A DNA stretch of 16,824 bases, taken from the UHGV virus genome UHGV-0124552; one strand, given 5' to 3'. Positions 4,202 through 16,824 of the stretch are shown piece by piece. The notes beneath the pieces were generated by a model that saw only the letters and a program-made list of their open reading frames with translations, had not been told where the DNA came from and made no database searches. Position 1 is the first letter of the stretch. The number at the start of each line of letters is the position of its first letter. Position numbers and translations under genes: made by a program. This DNA is from a virus.

Positions 4202-4428
4202 TGGCTGATGCAATGGATCTCGTACAGCAGCGCGTTGAAGAAGAACGCCAGCGCCATATTCGTGCTGCCCGTGCCAAAACACCGGGCGTGTCTCGCGTGC
4301 TTTGTATTGAATGTGAAGCGCCAATTCCGCCAGCACGACGCCGCGCCATTCCGGGAGTGCAGCTTTGCATTACCTGCCAGGAAATCGCAGAGCTGAAAGG
4401 CAAACATTACAACGGAGGTGCTGTATGA
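4201..4428 (+). CDS. TraR/DksA-family C4 zinc-finger protein
   Basis: CIECEAPIP ... CITCQ gives a Cys-x2-Cys ... Cys-x2-Cys arrangement. AGGAG RBS 8 nt upstream. Typical small gene of P2-like early operons. Confidence 0.7.
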   Translation: MADAMDLVQQRVEEERQRHIRAARAKTPGVSRVLCIECEAPIPPARRRAIPGVQLCITCQEIAELKGKHYNGGAV

Positions 4429-5282
4429 GCACCATCCTGAAATGGGCGGGAAATAAAACCGCCATTATGTCCGAACTGAAAAAACACCTTCCTGCTGGCC
4501 CGCGACTGGTTGAACCTTTCGCGGGTTCCTGTGCTGTGATGATGGAGACGGATTACCCCAGCTATCTGGTTGCGGATATTAATCCTGATTTAATCAACCT
4601 CTATAAAAAGGTTGCCGCTGATTGTGAATCGTTTATATCTCGCGCCAGAGTTTTATTTGAGATCGCAAACAGGGAGGTGGTTTATTACAACATAAGGCAG
4701 GAGTTTAATTACTCCACTGAAATTACTGATTTCATGAAAGCGGTATATTTCCTGTATCTCAATCGTCACGGTTACCGTGGTTTATGTCGCTATAACAAGA
4801 GCGGGCATTTCAACATTCCCTACGGTAATTATAAAAATCCGTATTTCCCTGAAAAAGAAATTCGCGCATTTGCAGAAAAGGCCCAGCGAGCAACGTTTAT
4901 CTGCGCCAGCTTTGATGAAACGCTGGCGATGTTGAAGGCGGGGGATGTGGTGTATTGCGATCCGCCGTATGACGGTACGTTTTCCGGCTATCACACTGAC
5001 GGCTTCACTGAAGATGACCAGTATCACCTGGCATCTGTTCTTGAACATCGGTCATCAGAAGGACATCCGGTCATTGTTTCTAACAGTGACACATCCCTGA
5101 TCCGTTCGCTGTATCGCAATTTTACTCACCACTACATCAAGGCAAAACGCAGCATCGGTGTGGCAGCTGGCGAGGGTAAATCAGCAACAGAAATCATTGC
5201 TGTTTCCGGGCCGCGCTGCTGGGTGGGATTTGATTATTCGCGTGGCGTGGATAGTTCTGCCGTGTACGGAGTACGTGCATGA
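4425..5282 (+). CDS. dam: DNA N6-adenine methyltransferase (Dam-like)
   Basis: N-terminal LKWAGNK and catalytic CDPPYDG (DPPY motif). GGAGG RBS 7 nt before ATG 4425. Stop overlaps the gpA start (ATGA). Confidence 0.85.
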
Positions 5283-7693
5283 GTCATGCCGATATGAACA
5301 ACTGCTGCGGCTTTAACGAGGCTGCCGCAGCATTCTCATGGAACAGCCCGAAAAAGGCCATTAACCCTTATCTGGACCCGGCGGAAGTTGCGCCGGTTTC
5401 TACGCTTTCAAACCTGATCACTCTGTACGCTGCCGATAACGAGCAGGAACAGTTGCGCCGCGAGGCACTGAGTGATCAGGTCTGGGAGCGTTATTTCTTT
5501 AATGAATCACGTGATCCTGTCCAGCGCGAAATGGAGCAGGATAAGCTCATTAGCCGGGCAAAGCTGGCGCATGAGCAGCAGCGTTTTAATTCAGACATGG
5601 TCATTCTGGCGGACGTCAACGCCCAGCCTTCCCATATCAGCAAGCCGCTGATGCAACGTATTGAATACTTCAGCAGCCTGGGCAGGCCAAAGGCTTATTC
5701 CCGCTATTTACGTGAGACGATTAAGCCATGTCTGGAACGACTGGAGCATGTACGCGACAGTCAGCTATCTGCATCTTTTCGCTTTATGGCAAGCCATGAA
5801 GGGCTGGATGGCCTGCTGATCCTGCCTGAAATGAGTCAGGATCAGGTGAAACGCCTGTCCACCCTGGTAGCTGCGCATATGAGTATGTGCCTTGATGCAG
5901 CTTGTGGTGATTTGTATGCCACCGATGACGTTAAGCCAGAAGAAATCCGCAAGACATGGGAAAAGGTGGCAGCGGAAACCCTGCGTCTGGATGTCATCCC
6001 ACCTGCGTTTGAGCAACTCCGTCGGAAAAGAAACCGCCGTAAACCCGTGCCCTATGAACTCATTCCGGGTTCGCTGGCGCGTATGTTGTGCGCCGACTGG
6101 TGGTATCGGAAATTATGGAAGATGCGTTGCGAATGGCGGGAAGAGCAGTTGCGCGCTGTTTGCCTGGTCAGCAAAAAAGCATCTCCTTATGTCAGCTATG
6201 AAGCCGTGATGCATAAACGTGAGCAGCGCCGTAAGTCGCTGGAGTTTTTCCGTTCTCATGAACTGGTGAACGAAGACGGCGACACGCTGGACATGGAGGA
6301 TGTGGTAAACGCCAGCAGCAGCAACCCTGCGCATCGCCGCAATGAGATGATGGCCTGTGTTAAAGGTCTGGAGCTTATCGCGGAAATGCGCGGTGACTGC
6401 GCCGTTTTCTACACTATCACCTGTCCGTCGCGTTTCCATTCCACGCTAAATAACGGCAGACCAAACCCGACCTGGACAAACGCGACGGTAAGACAAAGCA
6501 GCGATTATCTGGTCGGCATGTTTGCTGCATTTCGTAAGGCGATGCACAAAGCCGGGTTGCGCTGGTATGGCGTGCGGGTGGCTGAGCCGCATCATGATGG
6601 CACAGTTCACTGGCACCTGTTGTGTTTCATGCGCAAAAAAGACCGCCGTGCCATCACTGCATTACTGCGTAAGTTTGCCATCCGTGAAGACCGCGAGGAG
6701 CTGGGCAATAACACTGGGCCGCGCTTTAAGTCTGAGTTGATTAACCCGCGCAAAGGAACGCCGACAAGCTACATCGCGAAATATATCAGTAAGAACATTG
6801 ACGGTCGTGGTCTGGCTGGCGAGATCAGCAAGGAAACGGGTAAATCTCTGCGTGATAACGCTGAATACGTGAATGCCTGGGCGTCTCTGCATCGTGTTCA
6901 GCAATTCCGCTTCTTTGGTATTCCGGGGCGTCAGGCTTACCGTGAACTTCGCTTGCTGGCTGGTCAGGCGGCAAGGCAACAGGGTGACAAAAAAGCAGGT
7001 GCGCCGGTACTGGATAACCCGCGTCTTGATGCCATTCTGGCTGCTGCTGATGCTGGTTGTTTTGCCACCTACATCATGAAGCAGGGCGGCGTACTGGTTC
7101 CCCGTAAATATCACCTCATCAGAACCGCTTATGAAATCAACGAAGAGCCGACCGCCTATGGCGATCACGGCATTCGTATTTATGGCATCTGGTCACCCAT
7201 TGCAGAGGGCAAGATCTGCACTCATGCAGTGAAGTGGAAAATGGTTCGTAAAGCCGTTGACGTTCAGGAGGCGGCAGCCGACCAGGGCGCTTGCGCCCCT
7301 TGGACTCGTGGCAATAACTGTCCCCTTGCTGAAAATTTGTACCAACAAGGGAAAGACAAATCAGCTGATGGGGATACCAGAACGGATATCACCCGTATGG
7401 ATGACAAGGAGTTGCACGATTACCTGCACAGTATGAACAAAAAAGAACGCCGGGAACTGGCTGCAAGGTTACGCCTGGTGAAACCGAAACGGCGTAGAGA
7501 CTACAAACAGCGAATTACAGACCATCAACGACAGCAGCTCGTCTATGAACTGAAGTCCAGAGGATTTGACGGCAGCGAGAAAGAGGTCGATTTACTCCTT
7601 CGCGGCGGCAGCATTCCGTCAGGAGCAGGCCTGCGTATTTTCTATCGGAACCAGCGTTTGCAGGAAGATGATAAGTGGCGGAACCTGTATTAA
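5279..7693 (+). CDS. A: P2 gpA-family rolling-circle replication initiation endonuclease
   Basis: 804 aa, with HUH-type motif VHWHLLCF and active-site tyrosine motif YIAKYISKN. Last gene of the early operon. Confidence 0.85.
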
Positions 7694-8663: not shown

Positions 8664-9782
8664 ATGTATCTTTTCAAGTATTACCGTCCGGACTTCTTCT
8701 TCGAGAAAGCTATTCGTTATAATGAATTATATTTTTCCGCTCCTGCGCAATTGAATGATCCCAATGATCTCAATATAGATTATCGCTTCGATAATAAATT
8801 GAAATTATGGGATATTTTATTGCGTTCTCCTTGCGATAAATCCTATAAAAATTTGAGTCACATATTGGATTTGAGTAATTTGAAAATACATAAGGGATTG
8901 AATCGTATTTTTAGAGGAAAAAAAATAAAAAGTAGCATTGAGTCATTAGATAGCCTGTTCGACTCACACGTTGATGAGATACGTAAGATCATAGATGATG
9001 GTTTACTACCTATCAATGTGATTAATTCTGCTATTTATGGAAATATTCCTGAACCACGCCAATATTTGGTTTCACTTTGCGAGAACAGTATCAAAGAAAG
9101 GTTGTATAGGAAAATAGTTCCTGCAGTATTCAGTGTGTCATTTTCAGCTAATGCGTTAGATCGTATGATGTGGGCGCATTATGCTGCTGGCTTTAGTGGT
9201 TGTGTTGTGATTTATGAAACGCAGGATTTTAATATTGATGGTATACCCTATACTGGAATGAAGCTAAGAGAAAATTTATTTTCATCAGATAAATTTAATT
9301 TTCCAGTTAAGCCAATAAAATATAGTAATCAGGCTAAAGAGGTTTCACTTCTAGACCCAAGCGCAAATGTTGCAGAGTTATTTTTAACTAAAAATAGATT
9401 TTGGAGATATGAAGCTGAATATCGAATGTTTATTCCGGAGGCAAATGCAGGAATAGGGAGTGAGCGGCATGTTCAAAGACGCGTAAATCGAAATATTGGA
9501 CATATTTTTCATCATGATGCTAATGTTGTTAAAGGGATCATTTTTGGTCCTAGAATGTGTGAAATGAAAAAAGAAAGCATATGGAATTGTATCAAGTCAA
9601 ATATGGAGAATTCAAATTCAACAATATGTTATTTTTTTGACTCTGAGTTATCAGCATCAGGAAAGATTACTATTTCAAAAGGGCAACGAGCGGAAAAAAT
9701 GAAAAATTTCACTTTGTTCAGGAACAAGTTAAGTCAGACGGAAATGGCTAAAGTTTTGAAGGAAATTGGCATTACGAACTAA
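8664..9782 (+). CDS. DUF2971-like protein (372 aa) of unknown function; candidate single-gene defence/abortive-infection protein
   Basis: N-terminal YRPDFFFEKAIRYNELYFSAPAQLNDPND, central VFSVSFSANALDRMMWAHYAAGFSGCVVIY and C-terminal KNRFWRYEAEYRMF match the motif pattern I associate with DUF2971. Very AT-rich, preceded by about 380 bp of AT-rich non-coding DNA and followed by a terminator. Confidence 0.6.
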   Translation: MYLFKYYRPDFFFEKAIRYNELYFSAPAQLNDPNDLNIDYRFDNKLKLWDILLRSPCDKSYKNLSHILDLSNLKIHKGLNRIFRGKKIKSSIESLDSLFDSHVDEIRKIIDDGLLPINVINSAIYGNIPEPRQYLVSLCENSIKERLYRKIVPAVFSVSFSANALDRMMWAHYAAGFSGCVVIYETQDFNIDGIPYTGMKLRENLFSSDKFNFPVKPIKYSNQAKEVSLLDPSANVAELFLTKNRFWRYEAEYRMFIPEANAGIGSERHVQRRVNRNIGHIFHHDANVVKGIIFGPRMCEMKKESIWNCIKSNMENSNSTICYFFDSELSASGKITISKGQRAEKMKNFTLFRNKLSQTEMAKVLKEIGITN

Positions 9783-9848: not shown

Positions 9849-9875
9849 GCCCGCCAGAACTGGCGGGCTTTTGCG
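9849..9875 (+). terminator. Rho-independent terminator after the DUF2971-like gene
   Basis: GCCCGCCA (9849-9856), loop gaac, TGGCGGGC (9861-9868), then TTTTGCG. Confidence 0.65.
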
Positions 9876-10007: not shown

Positions 10008-10913
10008 ATGAAAAAGAAAACTATTCCGGAGTTGCAGAAGCAAAATCTGGCAAATTTAATTAAAAGTCGGCTTTTTCAACAGAAAAATAAAAATAAAGTT
10101 ACTGTTTTCCTTTGCGGGGGCGATTTGAATGATCCGTTTTTTTGTAGAAATAAAGTTAAAAGAGTGTTGGAAACACATCCCAAAATAGAAATATTCTATC
10201 CTGAGGAGTTGTTTGATGAGCTTTTGTATGGACAAGGTCAGCATAGTCTTTTAAGTTTGGAGAATATTTTAGCTGATTCAGTCGATGTTATTATTATTAT
10301 TCCTGAAAGCCCAGGGTCTTTCGCTGAATTGGGCGCATTTTCAAATAATGAAAAACTGTGCAAAAAAATGATATGTCTTCAGGATGACAAATTCAAACTT
10401 AAAAAAAGCTTTCTTAATTATGGGCCTATAAAACTGCTTCGGCGTGCTAATAGCGGTGCAGTATTGCGAGGAGATTTGTCGACTCTTGAAAGCTTGAGTA
10501 CAGGTAAAGCTTTTTATAATAGAATTATAAAAAGTATTAATGACATCAAAAAAAATAACCCAGTTAATCACTCAATAGATAATATTCTTCACGCTCGGCG
10601 TTTTATACTGCCATGTATATATTTGATGGATGGTATAGATAATATACTTCTATATGAGCTATTACATTTGGTGACTAAGAAAGATGCTATTCTTTGTGAA
10701 ATTATCGTTAAGTCTGTTATTTCAAGCTTGATTAAAGAGTCAATAATTAGGCGTTCAGTTCAAGGATACCATATTACAGAAATTGGTATGCAATACGTTC
10801 TTGAGCATTTTGATCGAAAGGCTTTGGACAATCTACGACTGGATATGATGAACTTCGAAAATCGTGGTAAAACAATACTCCACTATGATAGGATGCGTTT
10901 TGCGCACCCTTAG
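10008..10913 (+). CDS. Retron effector: nucleoside 2-deoxyribosyltransferase-like (NDT-like) protein, as in the Ec86 (Retron-Eco1) family
   Basis: VFLCGG ... VIIIIPESPGSFAELGAFS resembles the NDT-like fold motif with a catalytic Glu. Its stop codon lies inside the retron a1 repeat, immediately upstream of msr-msd and the RT. GAGGA RBS 9 nt before ATG 10008; the track start at 10002 is GTG. Confidence 0.65.
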   Translation: MKKKTIPELQKQNLANLIKSRLFQQKNKNKVTVFLCGGDLNDPFFCRNKVKRVLETHPKIEIFYPEELFDELLYGQGQHSLLSLENILADSVDVIIIIPESPGSFAELGAFSNNEKLCKKMICLQDDKFKLKKSFLNYGPIKLLRRANSGAVLRGDLSTLESLSTGKAFYNRIIKSINDIKKNNPVNHSIDNILHARRFILPCIYLMDGIDNILLYELLHLVTKKDAILCEIIVKSVISSLIKESIIRRSVQGYHITEIGMQYVLEHFDRKALDNLRLDMMNFENRGKTILHYDRMRFAHP

Positions 10914-11061
10914 CGAGTGGCTTCTCCGGAAGTTCACTGGACAGTGTTTCGCTGTCCTACATACAATCTGAAGTTTTACCAGTTCCCTCATTGAAAGGAG
11001 AACATCTCCCGATGTTCTCCTTTCACTTCGGAATCTGATTTTTATGACGTAAGGGTGCGCT
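10901..11061 (+). ncRNA. msr-msd: Retron msr-msd non-coding RNA (template/primer for msDNA), Ec86-like
   Basis: Inverted repeats a1 TGCGCACCCTTA (10901-10912) and a2 TAAGGGTGCGC (11050-11060). The 5' 17 nt TGCGCACCCTTAGCGAG and the 3' TGACGTAAGGGTGCGC are identical to the Ec86 ncRNA as I remember it. msr hairpin GGACAG-tgtttcg-CTGTCC (10939-10957). Long msd hairpin GAAAGGAGAACATC-tccc-GATGTTCTCCTTTC (10993-11024). Confidence 0.75.
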
Positions 11062-11062
11062 C

Positions 11063-12037
11063 ATGACTTCCGCAACACCATCTCAGGTTTTTCGCTTACG
11101 CAATCTTGGATTGCCTGTTATGTCCTCTTTAGAGGATATGTCTAGAGAAATGCGTTTATCAGTAGACATACTCCGGTTGTACATTTATCGTGCTGACAAA
11201 TACTATAAGGTTTATTCGTTGCCAAAAAGAGATGGCAAGAGATCCCGCATCATTTCACAGCCATCACGTGAGCTGAAGGCATTGCAAGCTTGGGTGTTAA
11301 GAAACATCCTTGATAAGTTACATTCATCCCCATTTTCCAAAGGCTTTGAAAAAGGGCAATCAATATTAAATAATGCCAGCCCACATGTAGGAGCTAACTA
11401 TGTATTAAATATTGATTTAGAAGATTGTTTTAATACTATTCTGATAGAGAAAATCTATACTGTTTTTCATTCTCTGGGGTATAACTCTACTATTTCTAAT
11501 GCTTTAGCAAGATTGTGTTCATTTAATGGTTCGCTACCTCAAGGTGCACCATCTTCTCCAAAGATTGCGAATCTTGTTTTAACTAAATTAGATTATAGAA
11601 TACATGGATATGCAGGTAGTAAGGGGATCGTATTTACTCGATATGCCGATGATTTGACTTTATCTGCTCAATCTTTAAAAAAAATACTTAAAGCTAAGTC
11701 ATTTGTATGCTCTATAATACCAAGTGAATCTTTGAAGGTTAATTATAATAAAGTTGCGATTCATGGCCCCAAAGCAAGGAAGGAGGTTACTGGGCTCGTT
11801 TTATCTATTGATAATGTTGGAGTTGGCAGAATACGTTATCGCGAAATTAGAAGTAAGATCCATTATCTGGCGGTAAAAAGAAATTCTGATTTCGAACATG
11901 TTAAAGGACTTATTGCGTTTGTTAAAAGTGTAGACAAGAAAAACTATAGAAAATTGATGACTTTCTCAAATAAAATGTCTGAAGCATATGGGGTTGATCT
12001 AAGTGTTCTTTTTCCTAAAAACAAAAAGGCCATTTAA
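11063..12037 (+). CDS. ret: Retron reverse transcriptase (Ec86 / Retron-Eco1-like)
   Basis: N-terminus FRLRNLGLPVM and QPSRELKALQAWVLRNILDKL closely resemble Ec86 RT (from memory). Also QGAPSSPKIANL, the catalytic YADD (RYADDLTLSA) and the retron-specific VTG motif (KEVTGLVL). Start codon abuts the a2 repeat. Confidence 0.85.
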   Translation: MTSATPSQVFRLRNLGLPVMSSLEDMSREMRLSVDILRLYIYRADKYYKVYSLPKRDGKRSRIISQPSRELKALQAWVLRNILDKLHSSPFSKGFEKGQSILNNASPHVGANYVLNIDLEDCFNTILIEKIYTVFHSLGYNSTISNALARLCSFNGSLPQGAPSSPKIANLVLTKLDYRIHGYAGSKGIVFTRYADDLTLSAQSLKKILKAKSFVCSIIPSESLKVNYNKVAIHGPKARKEVTGLVLSIDNVGVGRIRYREIRSKIHYLAVKRNSDFEHVKGLIAFVKSVDKKNYRKLMTFSNKMSEAYGVDLSVLFPKNKKAI

Positions 12038-12052: not shown

Positions 12053-13081
12053 TTAGGTAATTGAATAACTCACGAAATTAATAACTTCTTCATTTATCCA
12101 TTCGTTCAGCTCTTCTAGTCTTTTTTGTAAAGGGATGAGTTCATTCCTCACAAAAACATTAGCAGCTTTCTCTACATCCCCAAACCCCCCAATATTATTC
12201 GGCATGATCCCCATCATCTGCGGCGGCACGCGGTGCGCAGCCATCATGTCATCCCGGCTCACGTTCTTGATATTCAGAAACTCATCCTTCGCCGCGACTT
12301 CTGACAATGGGATGATCTGAAGTCCGTCCTTTTTGCCGTTAGGCGAGTACATAAACAGATTGCGGAAGTTACCTGGTCCTTTGGCGCTTTTCATCGTATT
12401 GCGGAGGTTGTTCACATCCTCCTGGTTCTGCGCAGCATCGGTCATGTACATGATGAAGCCTGCATGACTGCCGTTAATGTAATACTTGCGGCGGAACAGC
12501 GTGGCGGACTCGTTGAGCAGAGCTGACGGAATGGCAGAAAGATAACCGGGCAGGCCGTAGATCTCCTGGTTAATGTCCGGTTCCATCAGATGAAAAATGC
12601 TGCCTTTCGTGAACTGATACGGCTGGGTTGTCATACCGTATTGCACAAACCAGTAGGTATCCAGGTCTAACCCGCGTCGGGTGTATTTTGCCAGTGCAGG
12701 CTCAAGGGCGATAACTTCACCGAAGCGGTTCGTGCGTTTCTCCAGGTAGGCGTTACCAAAAACCAGATAGTCCTGCACAAAACGCGAAAAAGCCTGCTGG
12801 CTGAGTAGCGGGTGAGGGATGTAGGTGCTGGTCAGAATGTTGCATTTCACCGCAATTGGTGAACTGTGATGCACGGCAGCGCGGAAGGTGCGCGCCAGTC
12901 CGTCAAAGCTGACAGGAGGCTCATACCAGCGATCTGTCTGTACGCATTCCACATAGTCCAGCAGTTCGCGGCGGTCAAGTACAGGAACGGGATCACCGAA
13001 GCTGAATGCTTCGGCTGAAGTCTGGCTTTTATGCTTGAGCTGATTCGTCGCCGCAGCGCGGTTTTTCTTAATCTTTCCCAT
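12053..13081 (-). CDS. Q: Portal protein (P2 gpQ-like)
   Basis: About 342 aa, size and sequence style of P2 gpQ. Convergent with ret and divergent from O, as in P2. ATG at 13081 overlaps the P stop (ATGA). The last ~25 codons (12053-12130) are AT-rich, unlike the rest of the gene. Confidence 0.8.
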   Translation of the reverse strand: MGKIKKNRAAATNQLKHKSQTSAEAFSFGDPVPVLDRRELLDYVECVQTDRWYEPPVSFDGLARTFRAAVHHSSPIAVKCNILTSTYIPHPLLSQQAFSRFVQDYLVFGNAYLEKRTNRFGEVIALEPALAKYTRRGLDLDTYWFVQYGMTTQPYQFTKGSIFHLMEPDINQEIYGLPGYLSAIPSALLNESATLFRRKYYINGSHAGFIMYMTDAAQNQEDVNNLRNTMKSAKGPGNFRNLFMYSPNGKKDGLQIIPLSEVAAKDEFLNIKNVSRDDMMAAHRVPPQMMGIMPNNIGGFGDVEKAANVFVRNELIPLQKRLEELNEWINEEVINFVSYSIT

Positions 13082-14847
13082 CAAAAAATCTCCACAATAT
13101 TGCTGGTATTGGCGGATTCGCCCTGCAGCGGTTCGTTAAACAATGCGTGCATCGTTGCCCAGGCCAGATCGGCGTGGCTGGCTTCTTCGCTGCGGCTGGC
13201 TTCATAGGTCGGGCGGTTGCCGCTGGCGGTGGTGGCGCGACGGATTGCCATGAATGACTGCGCAATGTCGCTGTGCCCGGCGTCAAACTCCAGACGGCGG
13301 TGGCTGATAATGTCGTAGGCCTTGAGTACCAGAGCGTTTTTAACGTTGGGGTTGTAGACAAACTCCCGGACGGCTGGAAAAAACGCTTTCACGTTCTCAT
13401 AAACTCCGTGACCGACACCCGTCGAGTCGATGCCGATATATGTCACGTTGTACTGTTCGGTCAGTTTTTTGATGGCGTCCGCCTGGGCGCGGAAGTCCAT
13501 CCCGCGCCACTGGTGGCGCTCAAGAATACGGAACTTACCGCCCGGCACGGCTGGCGGTGCCACCACCACGCATCCGGCGCTGTCGCCGTTCTGCGTACCT
13601 TTTGCCGGGTCATAACCGATCCACACTTCGCGCCACCCAAACGGGCGAAGGGCCAGTGCATGAAAGTCGGTCCAGACTTCCCAGCTGTCCACCATGCACG
13701 CCTGCAGCTCGCTGAGCGGAAACACGGACGCGAGATCGTCCACAAACTCGCACATCAGCAGGTTCTGGTATTCGTCCGGGCTGTACTCCATGCGTAGTTG
13801 GTCGAGGTCGAACAGGTTACAGCCGCCGCGCACCGCATCTTCCACGGTGACTATCTGGCGGTATTGCCCGTCTGCGCACAGCAGGCCGGGGGCCAGATTG
13901 CTGTGGGACAGGTCGATGTCCACCTTGTCGGCTTTGTTGCGTCCACGGTTGAACAGCGCACCGGACCAGAACGGATAAGCACTGTGGGTCAGGCTGGATG
14001 GCGTGGAAAAATAGGTTTGTCGCCATTTTTTGTGAATAGCCATACCGGAAGCCACTTTGCGCAGCTCCTGGAATTTCGGTATCCAGAAATATTCATCCAG
14101 ATACAGGTTGCCGTGGTAACTCTGGGCAGTGCGGGCATTGGTGCCGAGGAAATACAGTGTGGCCCCGTTGGGAAGCACCATCGGATCGCCTTTCAGCTCC
14201 ACTTCCACTTCTTTGGCGAAGTCGATGATGTACTGCTTAAAGACGTGCGCCTGTGCCTTACTGGCAGAAAGGAAAATCTGGTTACGTCCGGTTAGCAGGG
14301 CGTCAATCAGGGCTTCACGGGCAAAATAGAAGGTCGCGCCGATCTGGCGTGACTTCAGCAGGTTGCGGATGCGGTTGGTTTTTCCGGCTTCCCACCAGTG
14401 ACGCTGGTAGTTGAACATGGAGGAATGGAAGATTTCTTCCAGCTTCTCAATCTGTTCATCGGTGAAAACATTCTTTTCAGGCTGACGGCGCGGGCCTTTG
14501 TTGCGGTTGGCGACGTTAGGGTTTAAATCGGCTTCGTTGCCGCCATTGTTAAACTTGCCGATCCGCGCGTGGCGCTCCGACTGGCGCGCCAGCAGATCAA
14601 TTTCTTTGAAATCTTTCCCTTCTTTGTGCTCCTTCATAATGAGCTGGCAGTAACGTGCGGCGGTGGTGAGCTGCATCTGATCCAGCGGCCCATAGTCACC
14701 CCACTTGTCGCGTTTTTTCCAGCTGTGAACGGTTGCAACTTTCTCGCCCAGCATTTCAGCAATGCGGGCTACGCGGTATCCCTGAAAGTACAGCAGCATG
14801 GCCTGCCGACGGGGATCGAGATCTGCGGGTGTCAGTGTGGTGTTCAT
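13081..14847 (-). CDS. P: Terminase large (ATPase) subunit (P2 gpP-like)
   Basis: 588 aa (P2 gpP is about 590). N-terminus LDPRRQAMLLYFQGYRVARIAEMLG resembles gpP. Upstream of Q on the same strand. Confidence 0.85.
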   Translation of the reverse strand: MNTTLTPADLDPRRQAMLLYFQGYRVARIAEMLGEKVATVHSWKKRDKWGDYGPLDQMQLTTAARYCQLIMKEHKEGKDFKEIDLLARQSERHARIGKFNNGGNEADLNPNVANRNKGPRRQPEKNVFTDEQIEKLEEIFHSSMFNYQRHWWEAGKTNRIRNLLKSRQIGATFYFAREALIDALLTGRNQIFLSASKAQAHVFKQYIIDFAKEVEVELKGDPMVLPNGATLYFLGTNARTAQSYHGNLYLDEYFWIPKFQELRKVASGMAIHKKWRQTYFSTPSSLTHSAYPFWSGALFNRGRNKADKVDIDLSHSNLAPGLLCADGQYRQIVTVEDAVRGGCNLFDLDQLRMEYSPDEYQNLLMCEFVDDLASVFPLSELQACMVDSWEVWTDFHALALRPFGWREVWIGYDPAKGTQNGDSAGCVVVAPPAVPGGKFRILERHQWRGMDFRAQADAIKKLTEQYNVTYIGIDSTGVGHGVYENVKAFFPAVREFVYNPNVKNALVLKAYDIISHRRLEFDAGHSDIAQSFMAIRRATTASGNRPTYEASRSEEASHADLAWATMHALFNEPLQGESANTSNIVEIF

Positions 14848-14893
14848 GGCACAAACCTACAGCCTTGAATGAAGGCTTTCCCCGCCTGCGGTT

Positions 14894-14911
14894 TGTGTGG
14901 TTGTCGGTACA
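14894..14911 (+). promoter_or_regulatory. TGT-N12-ACA dyad typical of Ogr-dependent P2-type late promoters, upstream of O
   Basis: TGT (14894-14896), 12 nt, ACA (14909-14911), in the P/O divergent intergenic region about 80-95 bp upstream of the O start codon. Confidence 0.45.
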
Positions 14912-14989
14912 AATACCGCGCATTGTTTCACTGCCCCCATCACCGCAACCATAAGGCTCCAGTAAGTTTTTTCTAACGGAGCACGGCTC

Positions 14990-15883
14990 ATGACAGTGAA
15001 AGCAAAGCGTTTTCGCATCGGGGTGGAAGGTGCCACCACCGACGGACGCGAAATCCAGCGTGAATGGCTGGAACAGATGGCAGCCAGCTACAACCCGGCG
15101 GTGTATACCGCGCTGATTAACCTTGAGCACATCAAGTCTTATCTGCCGGACAGCACCTTTAACCGCTACGGCAAGGTGACGGCGCTGTTTGCTGAAGAAA
15201 TCACGGAAGGTCCGCTGGCAGGCAAGATGGCGCTGTATGCCGACGTTGAGCCAACAGAGTCCCTGGTGGAGCTGGTGAAAAAAGGCCAGAAATTATTCAC
15301 CTCTATGGAAGTCAGCCCAAAGTTTGCTGATACGGGCAAAGCCTACCTGGTCGGGCTGGCTGCCACTGATGACCCTGCCAGTCTGGGCACTGAAATGCTG
15401 ACATTCAGCGCCAGTGCAGCCCATAACCCGCTGGCAAACCGCAAGCAGAATCCCGCCAATCTCTTTACCGCCGCAGAGGAAACGGTGATCGAACTGGAAG
15501 AAATCCAGGAGGACAAGCCGTCCCTGTTTGCCCGCGTCACGGCGCTGTTCACCAAAAAAGAGCAGTCCGACGATGCCCGGTTCTCTGATGTGCATAAGGC
15601 CGTGGAGCTGGTCGCCACTGAGCAGCAGAACCTGAGCGCACGGACCGAAAAATCCCTGTCTGAGCAGGAAGAACGTCTGTCTGAGCTGGAGACTGCCCTG
15701 CAGGCACAGCAGACCGCCTTTAACGAACTGGTGAATAAGCTGAGTCATGAAGACAGCCGCCAGGACTACGCGAAGCTGACCATCAATGGTGAGGTGCTCT
15801 ATGAAGTGGACCTTATCAACATGGTGGAAATTGTGGACGGTGTGGACCTGATGGAAGCGCACCGCAACGCCCTCGGCCTCTGA
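14990..15883 (+). CDS. O: Capsid scaffolding protein (P2 gpO-like)
   Basis: FRIGVEGATTDGREI ... INLEH ... TSMEVSPKFADTGKAYLVGLAATDDPASLGTE ... ASDDARFSDVH aligns by eye along the length of remembered P2 gpO. GGAG RBS 8 nt upstream. Confidence 0.85.
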   Translation: MTVKAKRFRIGVEGATTDGREIQREWLEQMAASYNPAVYTALINLEHIKSYLPDSTFNRYGKVTALFAEEITEGPLAGKMALYADVEPTESLVELVKKGQKLFTSMEVSPKFADTGKAYLVGLAATDDPASLGTEMLTFSASAAHNPLANRKQNPANLFTAAEETVIELEEIQEDKPSLFARVTALFTKKEQSDDARFSDVHKAVELVATEQQNLSARTEKSLSEQEERLSELETALQAQQTAFNELVNKLSHEDSRQDYAKLTINGEVLYEVDLINMVEIVDGVDLMEAHRNALGL

Positions 15884-15894
15884 TATATCTGAAC

Positions 15895-15912
15895 GGCGCG
15901 GGATACCGCGCC
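15895..15912 (+). other. GC-rich hairpin in the short O to E' spacer (possible terminator or deletion-junction landmark)
   Basis: GGCGCGG-gata-CCGCGCC. No T-run follows, so not a canonical intrinsic terminator. Confidence 0.3.
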
Positions 15913-15937
15913 AGAACCCAATTGACAGGACAGCAAA

Positions 15938-16080
15938 ATGAGCGATAAGCAGACTGAAAAGACCATTCAACTGGATACCCCCATCAAGCGCGGTAAAACA
16001 GAAATCACCGAAATTGTGCTGCGTAAACCGCAGTCCGGTGCGCTGCGCGGTACACGCCTGCAGGCCATTATGGATACCTG
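15938..16080 (+). pseudogene. Truncated tail assembly chaperone gpE-like N-terminal fragment (E')
   Basis: First ~47 aa (TIQLDTPIKRGKTEITEIVLRKPQSGALRGTRLQAIMD) fit the gpE-type tail assembly chaperone pattern. Beyond about 16080 the frame reads into unrelated residues before stopping at 16246. Confidence 0.5.
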
Positions 16081-16383
16081 GTGGGTACGGATGAAAACGT
16101 GCTGGTACTTAATCGCACTTATGCCAACCGGAGCAACGCTGAACGGGCAGCGAAAATGCAGTGGGAACGCCTGCAACGCGGCGTTGCGTCATTCTCGCTA
16201 CAACTGGCGGAAGGGCGGGCAGATCTCTACACAGAAATGCCTGTGAAGGTCAGTGGCTTTAAACAGCCGATAGATGATGCGGAATGGACCATTACGACTC
16301 TGACGCATACCGTCAGCCCGGATAACGGTTTTACGACCAGTCTGGAGCTTGAAGTGAGGATTGATGATTTCGAAATGGAATGA
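16081..16383 (+). pseudogene. C-terminal fragment of tail protein gpD (D')
   Basis: ERAAKMQWERLQRG ... RADLYTEMPVKVSGFK ... GFTTSLELEV resembles the C-terminus of P2 gpD (from memory). It lacks the ~290 N-terminal residues and is out of frame with the upstream E' fragment. Confidence 0.55.
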
Positions 16384-16473
16384 TTCTTCGCAATGGAGAA
16401 CTTTTAAGTTTGCAAAATGGAATAATGCGGTATCATTATTGTGAATTTAGCAAAAATGGGGAGAGCTCGAAAA

Positions 16474-16692
16474 ATGATGATTTGCCCACTGTGTGGAAGT
16501 GCCGCCCATACTCGCAGCAGTTTTCAGGTATCTTCATTGACCAAAGAGCGTTACAACCAGTGCCAGAACATTAACTGCAGCCATACTTTTGTTACCCATG
16601 AAACTTTTGTTCGTTCGATTGCAACGCCAAAAGAGTCAAATCCGGTTCAGCCGCATCCAATGAAATCAGGACAGGTGGCGCTCTCTCTTTGA
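16474..16692 (+). CDS. ogr: Ogr-family zinc-finger late gene transcriptional activator
   Basis: 72 aa; CPLCGSAAHTRSS ... KERYNQCQNINCSHTF ... RPHP closely matches remembered P2 Ogr (CPLCQHAAHARTS ... KERYHQCQNVNCSATF ... RPHP). ATG at 16474; the track start at 16441 is GTG. Confidence 0.9.
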   Translation: MMICPLCGSAAHTRSSFQVSSLTKERYNQCQNINCSHTFVTHETFVRSIATPKESNPVQPHPMKSGQVALSL

Positions 16693-16715
16693 CGCTGCCG
16701 CCATTTTGTCGCCAT
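16693..16715. repeat. attR: attR core: right copy of the 23-bp imperfect direct repeat CGCTGCCGCCATTTTGTCGCCAT
   Basis: 21 of 23 identical to 148-170. Begins immediately after the ogr stop codon. Confidence 0.6.
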
Positions 16716-16778
16716 CGTTAAAGAATAGTGCTTCTAACATCATGATTTTAAACAGCTTAAATTTCAGACAACAAAAAA

Positions 16779-16821
16779 CCCATCAACCTTGAACCGAAAT
16801 GGCGGGGTTGATGGGCTCCAC
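16779..16821 (-). terminator. Rho-independent terminator-like hairpin in the right flank
   Basis: cccatcaacc (16779-16788) pairs with ggttgatggg (16806-16815) across a 17-nt loop. On the - strand the stem is followed by TTTTTTGTTG. The loop is long, so confidence is moderate. Confidence 0.35.
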
Positions 16822-16824
16822 AAA

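What the first reader, a model, noticed from the sequence alone, without database searches (positions are those of the whole stretch)
10901..11061. Retron ncRNA: Ec86-identical ends with a divergent msd stem
The first 17 nt (TGCGCACCCTTAGCGAG) and the 3' end (TGACGTAAGGGTGCGC) are the same as the widely used Ec86 ncRNA as I recall it, and the msr hairpin keeps the TGTTTCG loop on a different stem (GGACAG/CTGTCC instead of GGATG/CATCC). The msd region carries a different 14-bp perfect stem (GAAAGGAGAACATC / GATGTTCTCCTTTC, loop tccc). The a1 repeat overlaps the effector stop codon and a2 doubles as the RT ribosome-binding region. Compensatory changes that keep the stems while changing the sequence indicate a functional, diverged msDNA, which could be useful as an orthogonal retron scaffold.
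Basis: partly seen in the sequence, partly recalled or inferred. Interest (0 to 1): 0.55.

Follow-up and report, generated by a model that had tools for sequence, protein, structure and literature searches.

The report
Untyped Ec86-like retron ncRNA
This is the non-coding RNA gene of a bacterial anti-phage retron closely related to the well-studied Ec86/Eco1 retron; it is a genuine, probably functional but ordinary new member of that family, notable mainly because its DNA "sensor" hairpin lacks the site through which Ec86 is reported to detect phage.

Summary
Window 10901-11060 is a retron msr-msd gene lying between an NDT-like effector (10008-10913) and a retron RT (11063-12037), in the gpA-portal cargo hotspot of a defective P2-like prophage. 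This is the same layout and position as Ec86 in BL21.

- **Identity to Ec86:** the first 17 nt and last 16 nt match Ec86 exactly. Overall identity is 71% for the ncRNA, 59% for the RT and 50% for the effector.
- **Structure:** across 21 distinct relatives all four helices covary (97.7% of cells paired, 18 of 37 pairs with double changes, 0 of 500 shuffles as good).
  - The top 10 bp of the msd stem are Ec86's stem with one compensatory pair. The real divergence is in msr stem-loop 1 and the lower msd stem.
  - Orthogonality to Ec86 is doubtful, because a1/a2, the SL2 loop and the linker are conserved.
- **Functional difference:** the msd has no CCWGG. That motif is the phage Dcm target reported to trigger Ec86. 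Four of six effector residues that contact the Ec86 DNA hairpin are also replaced.
- **Prior knowledge:** both proteins are already annotated (the exact RT is on 477 contigs). I found no paper that types this ncRNA.

Verdict: new member of a known kind, of modest interest.

The parts
10008..10913 (+). Effector gene: 301 aa, an NDT-like N-glycosidase with a C-terminal lobe, type II-A. Its last codons, GCG CAC CCT TAG (AHP*), are the a1 repeat.
   Evidence: PADLOC NDT_II-A 2.6e-97. NCBIfam NF038232 9.5e-55. 50% identity to the Ec86 effector. PDB 7v9x_C / 8qbm, 5e-92. Catalytic E106 and dimer residues E84, N112 and N113 are conserved. The ATG at 10008 matches the RefSeq annotation in strain H1.
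10902..10912 (+). a1 inverted repeat (GCGCACCCTTA). It pairs with a2.
   Evidence: Perfect 11-nt inverted repeat. Compensatory changes occur at its outer pairs in relatives: GTGCAC/GTGCAC and GCACAC/GTGTGC. It is invariant even in the 5 relatives whose effector ORF stops before it.
10913..10913 (+). Predicted branching guanosine, the 2'-OH primer. It is the G of the effector's TAG stop codon, preceded by TTA.
   Evidence: Inferred from position: immediately 3' of a1, left unpaired in the consensus fold, and invariant in all 21 relatives. TTA-G is the commonest branching context in tested retrons (PMC10849725). Not shown experimentally.
10916..10938 (+). msr stem-loop 1 (AGUGGCUUC-UCCG-GAAGUUCACU).
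   Evidence: Minimum-free-energy fold. This is helix 2 of the consensus, where 4 of 6 pairs show changes on both sides. It is the most diverged region against Ec86, at 32% identity.
10939..10957 (+). msr stem-loop 2 (GGACAGUG-UUU-CGCUGUCC). By homology with Ec86 and Eco7 this is the main RT-recognition hairpin.
   Evidence: Helix 3 of the consensus: 99.4% of cells paired and 4 of 8 pairs with double changes. The loop and base residues are invariant. The role in RT recognition is taken from PMC12673091 and is an inference here.
10958..10967 (+). Linker between msr and msd (UACAUACAAU). Together with the first two msd bases (CU, 10968-10969) it carries the conserved AAtCT motif at 10965-10969, next to the predicted reverse-transcription stop.
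   Evidence: Invariant A65, A66, C68 and T69 in the 21-sequence alignment. By alignment, the 3' end of the Ec86 RT-DNA maps to the following CTGAG.
10968..11048 (+). Predicted msd, the template for the msDNA: 81 nt, read right to left by the RT.
   Evidence: Homology mapping of the measured Ec86 RT-DNA (supplement of PMC10849725) onto the window. The predicted msDNA folds as DNA at -19.1 kcal/mol, z = -6.3. The exact ends are inferred. It contains no CCWGG and no GATC.
10993..11024 (+). msd stem-loop core: 14-bp perfect stem with TCCC loop. An imperfect extension runs over 10980-11037.
   Evidence: This is helix 4 of the consensus, with 98.1% of cells paired and 8 of 10 pairs with double changes. 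The apex CATC/GATG is almost invariant in the family.
11050..11060 (+). a2 inverted repeat (TAAGGGTGCGC). It also contains the Shine-Dalgarno-like AAGGG, 7 nt upstream of the RT start.
   Evidence: The spacing is read from the sequence. The same 2-3 nt gap between a2 and the ATG is seen in relatives L214-L218. The ribosome-binding role is inferred.
11063..12037 (+). Retron reverse transcriptase, 324 aa.
   Evidence: Pfam RVT_1 1e-24. PADLOC RT_II-A 4.9e-123. 59% identity to the Ec86 RT. PDB 7v9u_A, 5.4e-124. NAxxH, YADD and VTG motifs are present. The exact sequence occurs on 477 public contigs.

Best explanation
Window 10901-11060 is the msr-msd non-coding RNA gene of a type II-A3 retron, a sister lineage of Retron-Eco1 (Ec86). 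It is carried as cargo in the gpA-portal hotspot of a defective P2-like prophage.

Likely mechanism, by homology with Ec86:

1. The effector-ncRNA-RT region is transcribed.
2. The a1 and a2 repeats pair, which presents the G at 10913 next to the 3' end of the msd.
3. The RT binds msr stem-loop 2 and the linker.
4. The RT primes from the 2'-OH of that G and copies about 81 nt (11048 back to about 10968), making a branched msDNA whose DNA part folds into a long hairpin.
5. RT and msDNA bind the NDT-like N-glycosidase effector and hold it in a primed but inactive complex.
6. A phage-induced change to the DNA hairpin releases effector activity and aborts the infection.

Shown here: the sequence elements, the RNA structure and its covariation, the protein family assignments, the conserved catalytic residues, and the genomic context.

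Inferred: the branching G, the msDNA ends, complex formation, and anti-phage activity.

The msd has no CCWGG and most effector residues that touch the Ec86 hairpin are replaced. The trigger is therefore probably not the Dcm methylation reported for Ec86.
For: - **Architecture and homology:** the effector is NDT_II-A and the RT is RT_II-A. The best solved-structure matches are the Ec86 proteins over full length. The gene order and the hotspot between the gpA replication gene and the portal gene are the same as in BL21. That hotspot is described in bioRxiv 10.1101/2021.01.21.427644.
- **RNA:** the ends are identical to Ec86. The fold has z = -9.9. The covariance model finds a single full-length hit in the window, at 153.8 bits. 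Covariation over 21 distinct relatives gives 97.7% paired cells, 18 of 37 pairs with double changes, and 0 of 500 shuffles as good. Slid-register controls give only 35-47% paired.
- **Protein function:** the RT motifs NAxxH, YADD and VTG are intact, as is the effector's catalytic glutamate.
- **Maintenance:** the ncRNA is identical in 8 independent loci and the exact RT sequence is on 477 contigs. This argues the element is maintained rather than decaying.
- **Ec86 mechanism from the literature:** PMC12673091 and bioRxiv 10.1101/2023.08.16.553469.
- **Missing Dcm motif:**
- **Replaced hairpin-contact residues:** K149 to G, K177 to N, K185 to D, R219 to I.
Against: - There is no experimental evidence for msDNA production, for the branching G, or for defence by this particular retron.
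- The msDNA ends are transferred by alignment from Ec86. The census authors report that RT-DNA ends are not predictable from sequence alone (PMC10849725 abstract).
- The prophage carrying the retron is defective (gpO-FII fusion), so expression cannot be assumed.
- The mapping of effector contact residues crosses a 7-residue gap in the alignment, so K177 and K185 may be misaligned.
- Most relatives were collected with a pattern that fixes the a1 and a2 cores. The invariance of those cores is therefore partly built in. The 8 loci found through the RT protein also have them.
Confidence: 0.9

Rival explanations
1. It is simply Retron-Eco1 (Ec86) itself, or another retron that has already been typed, so nothing is new.
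For: The ends are identical to Ec86. The genomic position and architecture are the same. Both proteins already carry RefSeq names, 'retron St85 family ...'. The retron is probably included in bioinformatic retron catalogues, but their supplements were not readable here. The identity of 'Retron-Eco10', cloned from E. coli natural isolates, could not be established.
Against: The ncRNA is only 70.8% identical to Ec86 and at most 76% identical to any relative found. The RT is 59% and the effector 50% identical to the Ec86 proteins. The sequence is absent from the held supplements of the experimental census. None of the ncRNA fragments or accession numbers occurs in 8 million full texts.
Confidence: 0.12
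2. The ncRNA is a decaying relic in a defective prophage: still recognisable, but no longer producing msDNA or defending the cell.
For: The prophage has an internal deletion that fuses gpO to the end of the tail-tube gene. No significant promoter signal was found in the region (18 sites against 16.1 expected).
Against: Both ORFs are intact with their catalytic motifs. The ncRNA is identical in 8 independent loci, which include the strain H1 prophage that still has its major capsid gene and three IMG/VR contigs. All stems are perfect or nearly so. The exact RT sequence is seen on 477 contigs. BL21's functional Ec86 also sits in a P2-like remnant whose replication gene is a truncated pseudogene.
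Confidence: 0.07
3. The inverted repeats are an ordinary intergenic regulatory structure between two genes, such as a terminator, an attenuator or translational coupling. On this view the conservation of a1 only reflects the effector's C-terminal codons.
For: a1 encodes AHP-stop in 16 of 21 relatives. a2 contains the Shine-Dalgarno-like AAGGG for the RT.
Against: a1 stays invariant in the 5 relatives where the effector stops upstream of it. a1 and a2 covary: GTGCAC with GTGCAC, and GCACAC with GTGTGC. The internal helices covary independently. The region is homologous position by position to Ec86, whose RT-DNA has been sequenced. No T-run follows the long hairpin.
Confidence: 0.02

Closest known systems
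Retron-Eco1 (Ec86), type II-A3, E. coli BL21
   Same: The gene order is effector, then msr-msd, then RT. It sits in the same gpA-portal hotspot of a P2-like prophage remnant near rybB. The a1/branch region (17 nt) and the a2 region (16 nt) are identical. The SL2 hairpin has the same 19-nt geometry and the same GUUUCG loop. The msd stem apex is the same apart from one compensatory pair. The effector stop codon lies inside a1. RT motifs and the effector catalytic residue are conserved.
   Different: The ncRNA is 70.8% identical, the RT 59% and the effector 50%. msr SL1 is only 32% identical. The lower msd stem is replaced and weaker. The predicted msd is about 81 nt rather than 85-86 nt. It lacks the CCWGG (Dcm) motif that is needed for Ec86 triggering. 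Four of six effector residues that contact the DNA hairpin are changed. The RT start is 2 nt after a2 rather than 8 nt.
Unnamed Ec86-family retrons of Erwinia, Pantoea and related Enterobacterales (L214-L220, L168, L189)
   Same: These are the closest relatives: RT 63-68% identical and ncRNA 73-76% identical. They share the msd apex GAACATC-TCYC-GATGTTC, the GGAUAG/CUAUCC-type SL2, the AUGAC before a2, and an RT start 2-3 nt after a2. Most are also in P2-like prophages.
   Different: The window has its own SL1 and its own lower msd stem (GAAAGGAG/CTCCTTTC in place of CTCGG/CCGAG). It has G to A in the CCUGCA linker. Several of these relatives carry CCWGG or GATC in the msd, and the window carries neither.
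Retron-Sen2 (St85), the retron whose name RefSeq attaches to these proteins
   Same: RefSeq and NCBIfam name both proteins 'retron St85 family' (NF038232, NF038233).
   Different: The name comes from the HMM family, not from an identification. The solved-structure and PADLOC matches are to Ec86 / type II-A NDT systems. The census table lists Sen2 as II-A1 and Eco1 as II-A3. I did not compare the St85 ncRNA directly.

Membership tests
Bacterial retron (msr-msd ncRNA plus RT) | A retron-type reverse transcriptase with the YADD active site and the retron-typical NAxxH and VTG motifs, encoded immediately next to the ncRNA. | tested here: met
   RVT_1 1e-24. RT_II-A 4.9e-123. Motifs NASPH at 104, YADD at 194 and VTG at 242. 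The ATG lies 2 nt after a2. That these motifs are retron-typical is from my own knowledge of the retron literature.
Bacterial retron (msr-msd ncRNA plus RT) | Flanking inverted repeats a1 and a2 that pair and place a conserved G at the end of the stem. | tested here: met
   Perfect 11-nt inverted repeat at 10902-10912 / 11050-11060. Covarying outer pairs. An invariant unpaired G at 10913, preceded by TTA.
Bacterial retron (msr-msd ncRNA plus RT) | msr hairpins and an msd hairpin that are supported by covariation. | tested here: met
   All four helices are supported. 18 of 37 pairs show double changes, 97.7% of cells are paired, and 0 of 500 shuffles do as well. Slid-register controls give 35-47% paired.
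Bacterial retron (msr-msd ncRNA plus RT) | Production of a branched RNA-DNA molecule (msDNA) with a 2'-5' linkage. | not testable with these tools
   This needs msDNA extraction, sequencing and a debranching assay. Only the homology mapping to the Ec86 RT-DNA is available.
Type II-A3 retron (Eco1/Ec86 clade) | An NDT-like (N-glycosidase) effector with a C-terminal DNA-binding lobe, encoded upstream of the ncRNA. | tested here: met
   NDT_II-A 2.6e-97. Full-length match to the Ec86 effector structures, 5e-92. Catalytic E106 maps to E107. The gene ends inside a1.
Type II-A3 retron (Eco1/Ec86 clade) | The RT clusters with the Ec86 RT rather than with other retron clades. | tested here: met
   The Ec86 RT is the top PDB match at 5.4e-124, against 1.9e-34 for the next retron RT. 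The best PADLOC model is RT_II-A. No phylogenetic tree was built.
Type II-A3 retron (Eco1/Ec86 clade) | The Dcm target CCWGG in the msDNA stem, which is required for Ec86 triggering. This is a property of Ec86, not a formal criterion for the family. | tested here: not met
   There is no CCWGG in 10901-11060. The motif is present in 8 of 21 family members, including Ec86. Its requirement in Ec86 is reported in bioRxiv 10.1101/2023.08.16.553469.
Any Rfam RNA family | A match at or above a family's gathering score. | tested here: not met
   The only match in the window is RybB. Within 10850-11110 nothing scores above 17.5 bits. This retron ncRNA is not covered by Rfam 15.

The most novel reading that the evidence does not exclude
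This retron keeps the Ec86 chassis (a1/a2, SL2, the RT, and the effector's catalytic and dimerisation residues) but has swapped the sensor. Its msDNA hairpin has lost the CCWGG site through which Ec86 is reported to sense phage Dcm. The effector surface that contacts the hairpin has co-diverged: K149 to G, K177 to N, K185 to D, R219 to I. On this reading it responds to a different phage cue. The Ec86 family, in which 8 of 21 members have CCWGG and 13 do not, would then be a natural series of retargeted msDNA sensors exchanged at one P2 prophage hotspot.
Probability: 0.4. Interest if true: 0.5.

Novelty: new member of a known kind. Interest (0 to 1): 0.3.

Why it matters
For retron biology, this is a close natural relative of the best-understood retron. 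The two differ precisely in the part thought to sense phage. Comparing them could test whether msd sequence sets trigger specificity. It could also test whether the effector's DNA-contact surface co-evolves with the hairpin.

For tool builders, it is one more Eco1-clade RT and ncRNA pair to test for DNA production. The conserved recognition elements suggest it will cross-react with Eco1 rather than be orthogonal.

For annotation, it shows that the ncRNA of a fairly common E. coli retron (477 contigs) is not covered by Rfam, and that its proteins are named after St85 rather than after their closest characterised relative, Ec86.

Tried and rejected
- **Rfam:** neither the gathering threshold nor E <= 10 gave any retron family.
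- **Pfam copy in the tool:** no hit for the effector. The newer PF28093 STM3845 family appears only in precomputed annotations.
- **Genome contigs, single RT query:** no confirmed relatives.
- **Genome contigs, RT alignment query:** The covariance model does give weak hits just upstream of some of their RT genes.
- **P0002, the closest RT at 75% identity:** it could not be located on any contig.
- **Phage and plasmid collections:** no match to the ncRNA.
- **Pattern scan of metagenomes:** it returned about 20 chance matches lacking a1/a2 pairing, which I discarded by eye.
- **Literature:** no hit for the sequence or the accessions. The supplements of Mestre et al. 2020 and of the T7 kinase paper are not held. 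I therefore could not exclude that the retron is listed there or that it is 'Retron-Eco10'. The Cell Reports Ec86 methylation paper is not held, so I used its bioRxiv version.
- **Promoter scan:** no more sites than in shuffled sequence. The conserved TATGNT upstream of a1 also encodes Tyr-x and has no convincing -35 element, so I do not claim an internal msr promoter.
- **Rivals considered and rejected:** an intergenic terminator or attenuator, and a pure coding constraint on a1 (see the rival explanations).

Full report
**1. The observation**

I read 10700-11300 and took the Ec86 locus from BL21(DE3) NC_012971 as a reference, rather than relying on memory (L001).

- The 17 nt at 10901-10917 (TGCGCACCCTTAGCGAG) and the 16 nt at 11045-11060 (TGACGTAAGGGTGCGC) are identical to Ec86.
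- a1 (10902-10912) and a2 (11050-11060) form a perfect 11-nt inverted repeat.
- The msr hairpin at 10939-10957 has the same 19-nt geometry as the Ec86 hairpin, and three pairs are changed on both sides.
- The 14-bp perfect msd stem is at 10993-11006 / 11011-11024, with loop TCCC.
- The RNA folds at -73.7 kcal/mol against -38.1 +/- 3.6 for shuffles, z = -9.9.
- The effector's TAG stop (10911-10913) lies at the end of a1.
- The RT's ATG (11063) follows a2 by 2 nt.

**2. What surrounds it**

- The upstream ORF, with its real start at ATG 10008 (301 aa), matches PADLOC NDT_II-A at 2.6e-97 and NCBIfam NF038232. The downstream ORF (324 aa) matches RT_II-A at 4.9e-123.
- Their best solved-structure relatives are the Ec86 effector (5e-92) and the Ec86 RT (5.4e-124), over full length. 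Identities are 50% and 59%.
- The RT has NAxxH, YADD and VTG. The effector keeps catalytic E106 and the dimer residues E84, N112 and N113.
- The trio sits between the P2 gpA replication gene (5279-7693) and the portal gene (12053-13084, minus strand). This is the cos-adjacent defence hotspot of P2-like prophages (bioRxiv 10.1101/2021.01.21.427644). It is also the position of Ec86 in BL21.
- The prophage is defective. It has a gpO-FII fusion at 14990-15883 and ends next to rybB.

**3. Relatives and covariation**

- In 5,426 complete E. coli genomes, blastn finds this ncRNA at 99% or more in 4 genomes, and Ec86-type ncRNAs at about 69% in 48.
- The exact RT sequence is on 477 public contigs.
- I collected relatives in three ways: an RT-profile scan of IMG/VR, a pattern scan for the a1 and a2 cores in viral and metagenome contigs, and look-ups of contigs encoding RT homologues. 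This gave 21 distinct family ncRNAs.
- The window is 70.8% identical to Ec86 and at most 76% identical to any other member.
- RNAalifold on the MAFFT alignment predicts four helices: a1/a2, with an unpaired G13 and two further pairs; msr SL1; msr SL2; and the msd stem.
- On the model-fitted alignment, 97.7% of cells pair and 18 of 37 pairs show changes on both sides. None of 500 shuffles reaches any of the five measures. Sliding the partner by 1-3 columns drops pairing to 35-47%.
- The covariance model finds one full-length match in the window, on the + strand at 10901-11060 (153.8 bits); the only other window match is a 22-bit partial hit to the palindromic msd stem on the - strand.
- Caveat: the pattern scan fixed the a1 and a2 cores, so their invariance is partly built in. 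The eight loci found through the protein have the same cores. The outer a1/a2 pairs do covary: GTGCAC with GTGCAC, and GCACAC with GTGTGC.

**4.

- The msd stem is not a new stem. Its upper 10 bp, GGAGAACATC/GATGTTCTCC, equal Ec86's GGAGAGCATC/GATGCTCTCC with one compensatory pair. The CATC/GATG apex is almost invariant across the family.
- The regions that really differ from Ec86 are msr SL1 (32% identity), the msd 5' flank (46%) and the msd 3' flank (63%). In other words, the lower stem is the part that has changed.
- a1 overlapping the effector stop is a family trait: 16 of 21 relatives end in ...AHP*. In the 5 relatives where the ORF stops earlier a1 is still invariant, so the constraint lies in the RNA.
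- The ribosome-binding idea is plausible for this subclade, where AAGGG sits 7 nt before the ATG and relatives L214-L218 have the same spacing. It remains untested. It also implies that the Shine-Dalgarno sequence is sequestered whenever a1 and a2 are paired.
- Orthogonality to Ec86 is doubtful. a1/a2, the SL2 loop and base, and the AAtCT linker are shared. Structural work assigns RT recognition and termination to SL2 and the linkers, and in Eco1 also to SL1 and a1:a2 (PMC12673091).

**5. How it most likely works**

By homology with Ec86, a1/a2 pairing presents G10913, which is preceded by TTA. That is the commonest branching context (PMC10849725). The RT primes from its 2'-OH and copies the msd.

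I mapped the sequenced Ec86 RT-DNA through the alignment. This predicts a template of 11048 back to about 10968, or 81 nt. The predicted msDNA folds into a long hairpin (-19.1 kcal/mol, z = -6.3).

In Ec86, RT-msDNA and the N-glycosidase effector form filaments that are primed for activation. Phage Dcm methylates CCTGG in the DNA stem-loop, and mutating that motif abolishes defence. The active effector then hydrolyses NAD(P)+ and depletes adenine derivatives (PMC12673091; bioRxiv 10.1101/2023.08.16.553469).

The window's ncRNA has no CCWGG and no GATC. Eight of the 21 family members have CCWGG. Of the six Ec86 effector residues reported to contact the hairpin:

- K29 is kept.
- K178 becomes R.
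- K149, K177, K185 and R219 become G, N, D and I. There is some alignment uncertainty here, because of a 7-residue gap nearby.

I therefore think the chassis works like Ec86 but the trigger differs. That last step is inference.

**6. Known or new**

- Both proteins are already in RefSeq as 'retron St85 family' proteins. Any PADLOC-type tool would call the system Retron II-A.
- The ncRNA is not in Rfam.
- It is not in the held supplements of the experimental retron census, which does list Eco1 and a Cedecea relative.
- Neither the sequence nor the accessions occur in the searchable literature.
- I could not read the Mestre et al. supplement, nor establish what Retron-Eco10 is.

My verdict is a new, untyped member of a known kind.

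**7. Scores**

- The identification is near certain (0.9).
- Interest is modest (0.3), because a specialist would expect Ec86 relatives in this hotspot.
- The most novel reading still open is a natural sensor swap on the Ec86 chassis, with probability about 0.4 and interest about 0.5 if true.

Noticed in passing
window 8664-9782 (+), with a hairpin and T-run at 9849-9872: A 372-aa ORF just upstream of the retron matches the PADLOC candidate defence family PDC-S31 (1e-23) and, weakly, Pfam DUF2971. A GC-rich hairpin followed by TTTT comes after it. The P2 hotspot therefore carries a second, uncharacterised candidate defence gene as a separate transcription unit.
   Followed up: partly
window 14990-15883 (+) and 15938-16824: The gpO scaffold ORF is fused to the last 38 or so residues of a tail-tube (FII) protein. 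Fragments of a tail chaperone gene, ogr (16441-16692) and then RybB (16770-16824, minus strand, cut by the window end) follow. The prophage has lost its capsid, lysis and tail genes by an internal deletion. No complete E. coli genome in the collection matches 14800-16824 in one piece; the best is 85% coverage in two pieces.
   Followed up: partly
window 10884-10889, and the same position in relatives: A -10-like TATGAT (TATGNT in 20 of 21 relatives) lies 12-17 nt upstream of a1, inside the effector's conserved Tyr-x codons. It could be an internal msr promoter, or it could be coding conservation only. No convincing -35 element is present, and the promoter scan found nothing significant.
   Followed up: partly
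L004 2332-2479, L010 1448-1607, L011 1000-1162, L012 2294-2464, L009 2301-2463, L019 2303-2468, L007 2263-2409: The covariance model built from the Ec86 family gives weak but correctly placed hits (21-35 bits, E from 5e-8 to 7e-4) immediately upstream of the RT genes of very distant type II-A loci: a Chloroflexota MAG, Opitutaceae, Lachnospiraceae/Roseburia, Clostridium and Verrucomicrobia. The ncRNA architecture therefore appears to be conserved far beyond the Enterobacterales.
   Followed up: no
L219 1937-5682: One family member (RT 64% identical) is not in a prophage. It sits next to Thoeris genes (ThsA Macro and ThsB TIR), which makes it a chromosomal defence island.
   Followed up: no
window 4365-5282 (+): The prophage encodes a D12-class N6-adenine (Dam-like) DNA methyltransferase (Pfam 1.1e-76). 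The retron's msd contains no GATC, whereas 6 of the 21 related ncRNAs do. Whether this avoids self-triggering by the carrier prophage's own methylase is pure speculation.
   Followed up: no
L001 3270-4157 (BL21 RefSeq annotation): RefSeq annotates the Ec86 RT of BL21(DE3) from an internal start, giving 295 aa. The ORF starting at the ATG at L001 3195 gives 320 aa and aligns from residue 1 with the window's RT. The RefSeq record therefore seems to truncate the N terminus.
   Followed up: partly
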